Made by a program: the position numbers and the translations under genes
The notes under the pieces: generated by a model
Database searches by the model: none
What the model was told of the DNA's origin: nothing
Seen by the model: only the letters and a program-made list of their open reading frames with translations
Source of the DNA: a virus
Length of the DNA: 64,000 bases
IMG/VR virus record: IMGVR_UViG_3300045988_183940
Direction: 5' to 3' (one strand)
In this document: one piece after another, positions 29,040-29,172 of the stretch
How the letters are laid out: the number at the start of each line of letters is the position of its first letter
Numbering within the stretch: the stretch's first letter is position 1

Positions 29040-29077
29040 TGATTGACATAAATTAATTTTTTTGGTATAATAACATT

Positions 29078-29172
29078 AGATATTCAAGATTCCATTGTTG
29101 AATATCTCCTTTATATAAATATTTTATTAATAGCCTATTTGCTGCCAGCCTTCATTAAGATGGCTGGTTTTT
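29078..29172 (+). ncRNA. candidate small RNA (about 95 nt) with its own promoter and terminator
   Basis: Consensus promoter TTGACA-N17-TGGTATAAT at 29043..29071. 5' hairpin GATATTCAA/TTGAATATC. Intrinsic terminator CCAGCC/GGCTGG plus a T-run at 29145..29172. No plausible ORF. Confidence 0.35.

What the first reader, a model, noticed from the sequence alone, without database searches (positions are those of the whole stretch)
29043..29172. Stand-alone promoter-hairpin-terminator unit: candidate small RNA
A textbook promoter (TTGACA-17-TGGTATAAT, 29043..29071) is followed 7 nt later by a perfect 9-bp inverted repeat with a 10-nt loop (29079..29106), an AU-rich stretch, and an intrinsic terminator (CCAGCC/GGCTGG plus a T-run, ending near 29172). 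No start codon is in a plausible context. A second promoter for the next gene starts at 29193, so the sRNA is a separate transcription unit.
Basis: seen in the sequence. Interest (0 to 1): 0.5.

Follow-up and report, generated by a model that had tools for sequence, protein, structure and literature searches.

The report
Candidate small RNA gene in phage
A roughly 95-base non-coding transcription unit (strong promoter, hairpin at the RNA's 5' end, terminator) sits between two genes of an uncultured ~200-kb phage and is kept in its closest relatives. It is a reasonable but unproven new phage small RNA, and it is not a new kind of system.

Summary
A perfect extended -10 promoter (29043-29071) is followed, at the predicted start site, by a perfect 10-bp hairpin (29078-29107). 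Next come an accessible AU-rich stretch starting with CCUUU and an intrinsic terminator (29145-29172). A second promoter (29193-29221) serves the next gene.

This promoter type occurs 14 times in the window against 0 expected. The other copies sit just before genes or tRNAs, so P1 is probably active. No Rfam family matches, and there is no conserved ORF on either strand.

Thirteen distinct relatives from metagenomes keep the whole unit. The hairpin arms and a 22-nt block (..UGAAUAUCUCCUUUAUAUAAAU) are invariant, while about a third of neutral sites vary. The terminator keeps pairing through an indel and a G.U pair, and a 3-bp mini-hairpin shows one compensatory change. Overall conservation is only slightly above neutral.

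A sister clade has plain stop-terminator-promoter spacers here, so the unit is a recent, clade-specific gain. It also shares its terminator with the upstream gene, so it lies in that gene's 3' UTR.

Best reading: a new phage-encoded base-pairing sRNA with an anti-Shine-Dalgarno seed (confidence about 0.5). Targets are tentative. The main rival is a functionless remnant cassette. Interest is modest.

The parts
29043..29071 (+). Promoter P1: TTGACA, 17-nt spacer, TGgTATAAT (extended -10)
   Evidence: 14 exact copies in the window, 0 expected. Kept in relatives, with lesions in three: TTAACA in L003, TACAAT in L017, and a 10-nt spacer duplication in L006.
29078..29107 (+). 5'-terminal stem-loop starting at the predicted +1: 10-bp perfect stem, 10-nt loop
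   Evidence: The arms are invariant in the nine sequences found through the protein, apart from one innermost pair. The loop varies, including a 1-nt indel. An inner pair alternates between A-U and G-U.
29108..29122 (+). Accessible single-stranded block CCUUUAUAUAAAUAU. Together with C29106 and U29107 it reads CUCCUUU, the complement of the phage's Shine-Dalgarno AAAGGAG. This is the proposed seed.
   Evidence: Unpaired probability is 0.7-0.99. It lies within an invariant run of 22 nt at 29099-29120, where neutral sites are invariant only 67% of the time.
29123..29131 (+). Variable AU-rich spacer
   Evidence: Two haplotypes differ here.
29132..29143 (+). 3-bp mini-hairpin AGC-CUAUUU-GCU
   Evidence: RNAalifold predicts these pairs. 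The middle pair is G-C in 7 sequences and A-U in 5, a single compensatory event.
29145..29172 (+). Intrinsic terminator: CCAGCCUUC / GAUGGCUGG plus U5. It also serves the upstream gene.
   Evidence: In relatives the T/T mismatch is a U.G pair, and the L004 type has a 1-nt deletion that gives a perfect 8-bp stem CCAGCCUU/AAGGCUGG.
28143..29039 (+). Upstream gene (298 aa, no Pfam match). Its mRNA has no terminator before 29145, so the unit is its 3' UTR.
29193..29221 (+). Promoter P2 of the downstream gene (ATG 29252 to 30091). This is context, not part of the RNA.
   Evidence: The -35 and -10 hexamers are kept in all relatives except a TATAAT to GTATAAT change in three. It is homologous to the promoter of the sister clade.
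33200..33213 (+). Tentative target: 14-nt perfect complement (UUAUAUAAAGGAGA) covering the ribosome-binding site of gene 33221-33691
   Evidence: It is kept in relatives, with an A-to-G change that still allows a G.U pair. A whole-RNA cofold scan was not significant.
39528..39540 (+). Tentative target: 13-nt perfect complement at the ribosome-binding site of gene 39550-39945
27940..28049 (+). Sibling unit on the other side of the same gene: perfect promoter, about 75 nt carrying GAAAGGAG but no ORF, then terminator 28023-28042 plus U6
   Evidence: z = -4.08. It is present in the same clade and absent from the sister clade.

Best explanation
The unit is a gene for a non-coding RNA of about 95 nt, made by an uncultured low-GC phage of roughly 200 kb.

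Host sigma-A-type RNA polymerase would start at A29078 or G29079 from the consensus extended -10 promoter P1, and would stop at the intrinsic terminator ending near 29172. Because the RNA begins directly with a 10-bp stem-loop and ends with the terminator hairpin, both ends are structured. From general knowledge of Firmicutes RNA decay, this should protect it from 5'-end-dependent and 3' exonucleolytic degradation (inferred).

Between the hairpins lies an accessible, sequence-invariant block, (CU)CCUUUAUAUAAAU. It is complementary to AU-rich ribosome-binding sites of the form AUUUAUAUAAAGGAG. The proposed mechanism is base pairing with the Shine-Dalgarno region of phage and/or host mRNAs, which would block translation initiation. 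The best in-window candidates are genes 33221-33691 and 39550-39945.

The same sequence is also carried as the 3' UTR of the upstream mRNA, because the two share the terminator.

Shown here: the sequence anatomy, the recurrence of the promoter type, conservation in relatives, the absence of coding potential, and the predicted fold and accessibility. Inferred: transcription itself, the exact RNA ends, RNA stability, and the regulatory mode and targets.
For: - P1 is one of 14 exact TTGACA-N14-TGNTATAAT sites (0 expected). The others sit 25-45 nt before an SD plus ATG, or before tRNA genes.
- The fold has z = -4.47, and the seed region is unpaired in the ensemble.
- The phage's usual layout is stop codon, then an immediate terminator, then the next promoter, for example at 25262-25316. 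Here about 105 nt containing a promoter separates the stop codon from the terminator, so the unit is an added cassette and not the default spacer.
- The unit is present in all relatives found through the neighbouring protein (L001-L010) and in six more found by DNA pattern.
- In the nine sequences found through the protein, the 5' arm and a 22-nt run are invariant, while only 66.7% of four-fold sites are. A simulation in that call gave P = 0.0009 for a run of 25 or more; my by-hand estimates (not computed in a call) are about 0.004 for the 22-nt run and about 0.004 for at most one variable column among the 20 arm positions.
- G.U pairs in the terminator and the inner hairpin pair, plus one G-C to A-U compensatory change, fit plus-strand RNA structure.
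- The terminator stem is kept across an indel.
- No frame is conserved. The only open plus-strand frame lacks ATG, GTG, TTG or an SD, and is broken by +1 and -2 indels in one haplotype. The minus-strand ORFs called in some relatives are interrupted in others.
- Among 44 AAGGAG sites, two ribosome-binding sites extend the complementarity by 6 or more extra nucleotides, where 0.09 are expected. The one that could be checked is kept in relatives.
Against: - There is no expression data.
- Whole-transcript identity (0.90) is only slightly above four-fold sites (0.85) and the non-functional spacer (0.86). The whole-unit invariance test is not significant (p = 0.08).
- Divergence among relatives is low, and almost no covariation is available: one event in a 3-bp helix.
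- P1 is weakened in 3 of 14 variants.
- The unit is missing at this position in the sister clade. It has no paralogue in the window or in the sister loci, and no match in Rfam, the phage database, IMG/VR or GTDB genomes.
- A cofold-based target scan over 99 translation-initiation regions did no better than scans with a shuffled seed. The extension test was devised after seeing the matches.
- On the minus strand the invariant block reads like an ordinary 5' UTR plus SD, so it could be a relic.
Confidence: 0.5

Rival explanations
1. The unit is a functionless remnant cassette. A promoter-gene-terminator 'moron' was inserted between the two genes in the ancestor of this clade and then lost its gene. 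This left a live promoter, a scrap of UTR and a terminator. A short RNA may be made, but it has no role, and the conservation simply reflects how young the clade is.
For: - The unit is absent from the sister clade, which has the plain terminator-promoter spacer.
- Whole-unit conservation is near neutral.
- The sibling unit at 27940-28049 carries a promoter and a typical SD (GAAAGGAG) with no ORF, plus a 31-nt indel among relatives. That looks like a decayed gene start.
- On the minus strand, unit 2 reads AAAGGAG-N10-ATG with only a 3-codon ORF.
- P1 shows lesions in three relatives.
Against: - The 22-nt invariant run and the invariant stem arms exceed the neutral expectation.
- The perfect 10-bp hairpin sits exactly at +1, and the terminator stem is maintained through an indel and G.U changes.
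- The minus-strand ATG is not conserved.
- A relic SD on the opposite strand does not explain a plus-strand consensus promoter.
Confidence: 0.22
2. The unit is a cis-acting leader. P1 transcripts are meant to read through the terminator into gene 29252-30091 and the genes after it. This would happen when a phage factor binds the 5' hairpin, as in nut/put-like processive antitermination, or through conditional attenuation. It would add a second, timed input alongside P2.
For: - The order is promoter, then RNA hairpin, then terminator, directly upstream of an operon.
- The terminator is moderate, with a U4-5 tract and one mismatch in the window.
- Another promoter in the window (18895, minus strand) is followed by a terminator-like hairpin before its gene. 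Leader termination may therefore be used by this phage.
Against: - P2 is a conserved consensus promoter between the terminator and the gene, so P1 is not needed.
- No sequence able to pair with the terminator's 5' arm (a GGCUGG-like antiterminator) exists upstream (sequence inspection; fold).
- The hairpin half-site is not enriched elsewhere in 64 kb (19 found vs 15.5 expected), and the covariance model finds no second copy. nut/put sites normally recur.
Confidence: 0.1
3. The palindrome acts at the DNA level. AGATATTCAA-N10-TTGAATATCT would be an operator for a dimeric phage or host regulator that sits on the start site and switches P1 off.
For: - The arms are invariant while the loop varies, which is the pattern expected for a two-half-site operator.
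- The palindrome overlaps +1.
- Another promoter class in this phage does carry a palindrome (TTGACAANNTTGTCAA, 8 sites vs 0.1 expected).
Against: - The half-site does not recur at any other promoter in the window.
- Loop length changes by 1 nt between haplotypes, which would shift the phasing of the half-sites.
- This idea does not explain the invariant CTCCTTTATATAAAT block or why the promoter is followed by a terminator. It is compatible with the sRNA reading and is not an alternative to it.
Confidence: 0.08
4. The RNA is a decoy and not a base-pairing regulator. Examples would be an RNA mimic of a host CRISPR repeat (an RNA anti-CRISPR) or of a tRNA T-arm, which would titrate a host protein.
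For: - It is a short, promoter-driven structured RNA in a phage.
- In one haplotype the loop reads GGUUCGAUU, the tRNA T-loop consensus.
- The phage carries tRNA-like and Y-RNA-like genes 2 kb away.
Against: - The window's own loop (AGAUUCCAUUG) departs from the T-loop consensus.
- A 10-bp stem with a 10-nt loop is atypical of CRISPR repeats (own knowledge).
- The hairpin sequence is not found repeated in viral contigs.
- The invariant part lies outside the loop.
Confidence: 0.04
5. The unit encodes a micro-protein. On the plus strand this would be the hydrophobic frame ..EYLLYINILLIAYLLPAFIKMAGFSF. On the minus strand it would be a short ORF.
For: The plus-strand frame is open across the whole transcript in the window-type haplotype. 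Gene callers predicted minus-strand ORFs of 33 and 42 aa in L003, L006 and L009.
Against: - The plus-strand frame has no ATG, GTG or TTG and no SD before codon 30.
- The +1 and -2 indels break it in the second haplotype.
- The minus-strand ORFs carry stop codons in the window-type haplotype.
Confidence: 0.02

Closest known systems
3'-UTR-embedded sRNAs with their own promoter, such as DapZ and MicL of enterobacteria (recalled from own knowledge, not tested here)
   Same: The promoter lies after or within the end of a coding gene. The short transcript shares the intrinsic terminator of the upstream mRNA. The seed is single-stranded, lies upstream of the terminator hairpin, and targets ribosome-binding sites.
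   Different: There is no sequence relationship. The host is probably a Firmicute-like organism and not an Hfq-dependent enterobacterium. The promoter starts 4 nt after the stop codon and not inside the CDS. No expression or target data exist.
Known phage- and prophage-encoded regulatory sRNAs (DicF, AsxR, AgvB, P1/P7 c4 and others), as reviewed in PMC12197685
   Same: These are short non-coding RNAs from phage DNA that act by base pairing, often at Shine-Dalgarno regions, and end in Rho-independent terminators.
   Different: A term search of that review found no mention of Gram-positive hosts, Bacillus, lytic phages or jumbo phages; the examples in the passages it returned are E. coli, Shiga-toxin phage and P1/P7 RNAs. 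This unit comes from an uncultured low-GC phage of about 200 kb. It matches no Rfam family.
Firmicutes sRNAs that mask Shine-Dalgarno sequences with C/U-rich single-stranded motifs, such as RsaE/RoxS and SR1 (own knowledge)
   Same: An accessible pyrimidine-rich motif complementary to GGAG-type SDs, with a simple hairpin-seed-terminator architecture.
   Different: Those RNAs use UCCC/CCCC motifs in loops and are chromosomal. Here the motif is CUCCUUU followed by an AU tract, partly buried in the last two stem pairs. The only Rfam near-match, RsaOG, is noise (17.8 bits, E = 9.8).
Lambda nut and HK022 put antitermination RNA elements (own knowledge)
   Same: An RNA hairpin is encoded immediately downstream of an early-type promoter and upstream of a terminator.
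   Different: The hairpin does not recur elsewhere in 64 kb. The downstream gene has its own promoter. No boxA-like element was identified.

Membership tests
Independent base-pairing sRNA gene (generic class) | Own promoter | tested here: met
   Consensus -35, 17-nt spacer and extended -10. The pattern occurs 14 times against 0 expected. This is a sequence prediction only.
Independent base-pairing sRNA gene (generic class) | Intrinsic terminator giving a defined short transcript | tested here: met
   Stem of -11.6 kcal/mol plus U5. The structure is kept in relatives.
Independent base-pairing sRNA gene (generic class) | No conserved coding frame | tested here: met
Independent base-pairing sRNA gene (generic class) | Sequence or structure conserved beyond the neutral rate | tested here: inconclusive
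   Local blocks are significantly invariant, but the whole unit is not (p = 0.08). Only one compensatory change was seen.
Independent base-pairing sRNA gene (generic class) | Detectable discrete transcript | not testable with these tools
   No transcriptome data are available.
Independent base-pairing sRNA gene (generic class) | Seed-target complementarity above chance | tested here: inconclusive
   Two ribosome-binding sites carry 13-14 nt perfect matches (0.09 expected, a test devised after the fact). The cofold scan against shuffled seeds was not significant. The host genome is unknown.
3'-UTR-embedded sRNA with internal promoter | Lies between the stop codon and the terminator of an upstream gene and shares that terminator | tested here: met
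   No terminator-like hairpin lies between 29039 and 29145 on the plus strand.
Any Rfam 15 family | Covariance-model score at or above the gathering threshold | tested here: not met
   There is no hit at the gathering threshold. The best hit is RsaOG at 17.8 bits against a threshold of 50.
Attenuator or riboswitch leader | An alternative antiterminator structure, and the downstream gene depending on this promoter | tested here: not met
   No upstream complement to the terminator's 5' arm exists. A conserved P2 lies between the terminator and the gene.
nut/put-type antitermination site | The same RNA element recurs at several operons of the phage | tested here: not met
   Half-site count is 19 against 15.5 expected. 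The covariance model finds only the unit itself in 64 kb. The remaining ~140 kb of the genome was not seen.
Type I toxin-antitoxin | A small hydrophobic ORF with a start codon and SD, plus an overlapping or complementary antitoxin RNA | tested here: not met
   The hydrophobic frame has no start codon or SD and is disrupted by indels.
RNA anti-CRISPR (solitary repeat unit) | The hairpin matches the repeat of a host CRISPR array | not tested
The host is unknown.

The most novel reading that the evidence does not exclude
The RNA is a mimic of the 16S rRNA 3' tail: a hairpin followed by single-stranded ..AUCUCCUUUAUA, compared with ..GAUCACCUCCUUUCUA in 16S. A strong early-type promoter would make it in large amounts, and it would compete with ribosomes for AU-rich AAAGGAG ribosome-binding sites. 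The sibling RNA on the other side of the same gene (27975-28049) carries an exposed GAAAGGAGA but no ORF, and would act as its sponge or partner. Together the two added cassettes would form an SD/anti-SD RNA pair that tunes translation during infection.
Probability: 0.07. Interest if true: 0.7.

Novelty: new member of a known kind. Interest (0 to 1): 0.33.

Why it matters
Regulatory RNAs of phages are known mostly from enterobacterial prophages. Large uncultured phages of low-GC hosts are essentially unexplored for them.

If this unit is real, it would be a compact, easily testable example. It would have a defined promoter, 5' stabiliser hairpin, seed and terminator, and two candidate in-phage targets. 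It would also show sRNA cassettes being gained in a recent phage lineage.

It would not change current concepts. Its value is as an annotation and a test case, and as a pointer to a phage genome rich in RNA biology: tRNA-like and Y-RNA-like genes, a Ro-like protein and RtcB lie nearby.

Tried and rejected
- **Rfam:** searches at gathering and permissive thresholds gave nothing.
- **Phage nucleotide database:** a blastn search of 27900-30200 against 50,697 phage records found no match.
- **IMG/VR:** searches with the upstream protein and with the hairpin found nothing.
- **Seed 22-mer:** searches in IMG/VR and GTDB genomes each returned one hit lacking the hairpin partner. Both are chance matches.
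- **Paralogues:** covariance model R1, built from 12 sequences, found only the unit itself in the window and in sister-clade loci. A short-word blastn found only matches of 14 nt or less.
- **Recurrent operator:** the half-site is not enriched.
- **Coding:** rejected on both strands. This includes the minus-strand SD-ATG-GAA-TCT-TGA micro-ORF, whose ATG is missing in one haplotype.
- **Replication origin primed by the promoter:** GC skew simply follows gene orientation and shows no feature near 29 kb.
- **Target prediction:** RNAduplex and cofold scans over 99 translation-initiation regions were no better than shuffled controls.
- **First promoter pattern:** one search had the wrong spacer length and found nothing. 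It was corrected.

Full report
**Setting**

The window is 33% GC and is densely packed with genes, mostly on the plus strand up to about 47 kb. Homologues of its proteins lie on metagenome contigs of 140-206 kb. It is therefore part of an uncultured phage of roughly 200 kb. No related nucleotide sequence exists in the GenBank phage collection, and the neighbouring helicase has only distant phage relatives, below 30% identity.

Yes.

- **Promoter.** TTGACA (29043-48), a 17-nt spacer and TGgTATAAT (ending at 29071) are present. The exact pattern TTGACA-N14-TGNTATAAT occurs 14 times in the window and never in 100 shuffles. Listing what follows each such promoter shows that almost all precede an SD plus ATG within 25-45 nt, or precede a tRNA. 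P1 is thus the genome's standard strong promoter.
- **Hairpin.** It begins at the predicted +1. Perfect repeats of this size are about 12 times more common in the window than in shuffles, and most of the others are terminators.
- **Terminator.** It is CCAGCCUUC/GAUGGCUGG (29145-67, one mismatch, -11.6 kcal/mol) followed by U5.
- **Fold.** The 98-nt RNA folds with z = -4.47.
- **Coding.** No ORF of 20 aa or more lies in the unit.
- **Second promoter.** P2 (29193-29221) and the SD plus ATG at 29252 follow.

**Context that changes the picture**

1. The phage's normal intergenic layout is stop codon, then an immediate terminator, then the next promoter. An example is terminator 25262-79 followed by promoter 25288. 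Here about 105 nt containing a promoter separates the stop codon (29039) from the terminator. The terminator must also serve the upstream gene, so the candidate RNA sequence doubles as that gene's 3' UTR.
2. The other side of the same gene has a second unit of the same design. It has a perfect promoter at 27940-68, about 75 nt carrying GAAAGGAG but no ORF, terminator 28023-42 plus U6, and then promoter 28063.

**Relatives**

Homologues of the downstream protein (83-95% identity) led to loci L001-L010. A DNA-pattern scan of metagenomes added L013-L018; these are biased towards conservation of the pattern used. All carry the unit in the same place, as 13 distinct sequences besides the window.

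Using only the nine sequences found through the protein:

- Four-fold sites of the upstream gene are 85% identical pairwise, and 66.7% of them are invariant.
- The transcript is 90% identical, with 74% of columns invariant (binomial p = 0.08).
- The 5' arm and a 22-nt run (29099-29120, the 3' arm plus CUCCUUUAUAUAAAU) are fully invariant. A simulation gave P = 0.0009 for an invariant run of 25 or more; my by-hand estimate for a run of 22 is about 0.004.

The loop and the AU spacer fall into two haplotypes with +1 and -2 indels.

RNAalifold keeps three helices. The only double change is G-C to A-U in a 3-bp mini-hairpin. The terminator tolerates a U.G pair, and in the L004 type a deletion re-forms a perfect 8-bp stem. 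G.U pairs argue for structure in the plus-strand RNA.

P1 is intact in most relatives but weakened in three (L003, L006, L017).

A more distant clade, whose upstream protein is 65-67% identical (L019-L026), has short canonical spacers on both sides of the gene. These are 107 and 92 nt, each with a terminator and then a promoter homologous to 28063 or to P2, and neither unit is present. Covariance model R1 finds no copy in those loci or elsewhere in the window. Both cassettes were therefore gained in the window's clade, or lost in the sister clade.

**Coding potential**

One plus-strand frame is open through the whole RNA in the window type, but it has no canonical start codon or SD. The indels of the second haplotype shift it into stop codons. 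The minus-strand ORFs called in three relatives are interrupted in the window type, and the minus-strand SD-ATG micro-ORF loses its ATG in the second haplotype.

**Function**

The invariant block is predicted to be unpaired. It is the complement of AUUUAUAUAAAGGAG, an AU-rich ribosome-binding site.

- Among 44 AAGGAG sites in the window, two extend the match by 6 or more further nucleotides, where 0.09 are expected. They are the ribosome-binding sites of genes 33221-33691 and 39550-39945.
- The first of these sites is kept in relatives, with an A-to-G change that still permits a G.U pair.
- That test was designed after seeing the matches. An unbiased cofold scan against shuffled-seed controls was not significant, and host targets cannot be assessed.

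The mechanism I commit to is a trans-acting anti-SD sRNA, stabilised by a 5'-terminal hairpin and a terminator. It is inferred from anatomy and is not shown.

**Rivals**

- **Decayed moron.** This is the strongest rival. It fits the clade-specific presence, the near-neutral overall conservation and the relic-like sibling unit. It does not explain the locally invariant blocks or the exact placement of the hairpin at +1.
- **Leader or antitermination role.** This is weakened by the conserved P2, by the lack of any antiterminator pairing, and by the hairpin not recurring.
- **DNA operator.** This is possible for the palindrome but does not replace the RNA reading.
- **Micro-protein.** This is rejected.

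**Comparison with known systems**

The unit works like a 3'-UTR-embedded, promoter-driven sRNA and like SD-masking sRNAs of Firmicutes. It belongs to no described RNA family. A term search of a 2025 review of phage sRNAs found no mention of Gram-positive hosts, Bacillus, lytic phages or jumbo phages.

**Verdict**

This is a credible new member of a known kind. It is unproven and of modest interest.

Noticed in passing
window 27940-28049 (+): A second promoter-short RNA-terminator unit lies on the other side of gene 28143-29039. It has a perfect promoter, an exposed GAAAGGAG with no ORF, and a strong terminator (fold z = -4.08). It is conserved in the same clade with a 31-nt indel, and is absent from the sister clade. 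It could be a decayed gene start or a partner RNA of the finding.
   Followed up: partly
window 31314-34907 (+): Possible phage RNA-repair or Ro-like module. A consensus promoter (31314) is followed by a tRNA-like gene with a 61-nt insertion (31485-31604), a second tRNA-like gene with an unreadable anticodon (31613-31689), and a sub-threshold YrlA (Y RNA-like) match at 31572-31646 (30.9 bits, E = 8e-5). Next come a 460-aa DUF2828/DUF7788/vWA protein (31786-33168), a 156-aa protein and RtcB ligase (33759-34907). The order resembles bacterial rsr-yrlA-rtcB loci (comparison from own knowledge).
   Followed up: partly
window, 8 sites including 19477, 33703, 40516, 44017 and 62039: There are two promoter classes. 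One has a palindrome over the -35 (TTGACAANNTTGTCAA; 8 sites vs 0.1 expected), which is probably an operator. The other reads TTGACAnnnATTAA and includes the finding's P1, the sibling unit, P2 and the tRNA and Y-like RNA promoters. These may be differently regulated or timed classes.
   Followed up: partly
window 48567-48812: Two consensus promoters face each other (48669 on the plus strand, 48812 on the minus strand), giving roughly 70 nt of overlapping antisense transcription by my estimate from the promoter coordinates. They lie between tRNA-Ser (48462-48553, minus strand, with its own promoter at 48595) and gene 48922. This is also where gene orientation and GC skew switch.
   Followed up: no
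window 18895-18800 (-): A near-consensus promoter is followed by a terminator-like hairpin (UAAACGUCAG..CUGGCGUUUA plus a U-tract, -11.7 kcal/mol) before the SD and ATG of the next gene. No second promoter is present, so this may be a leader attenuator.
   Followed up: no
L001 5602-6471; L003 5429-6535: Some relatives carry a TnpB-like gene (OrfB_IS605 / Cas12f1-like_TNB) inserted between the small membrane-protein genes and the Ro-like gene. The window lacks it.
   Followed up: no
L003, L006, L009, L017, L018 (hairpin loop of the unit): In the second haplotype the loop reads GGUUCGAUU, closed by a G-U pair. This is identical to the tRNA T-arm/T-loop consensus. The window's own loop (AGAUUCCAUUG) departs from it.
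   Followed up: no
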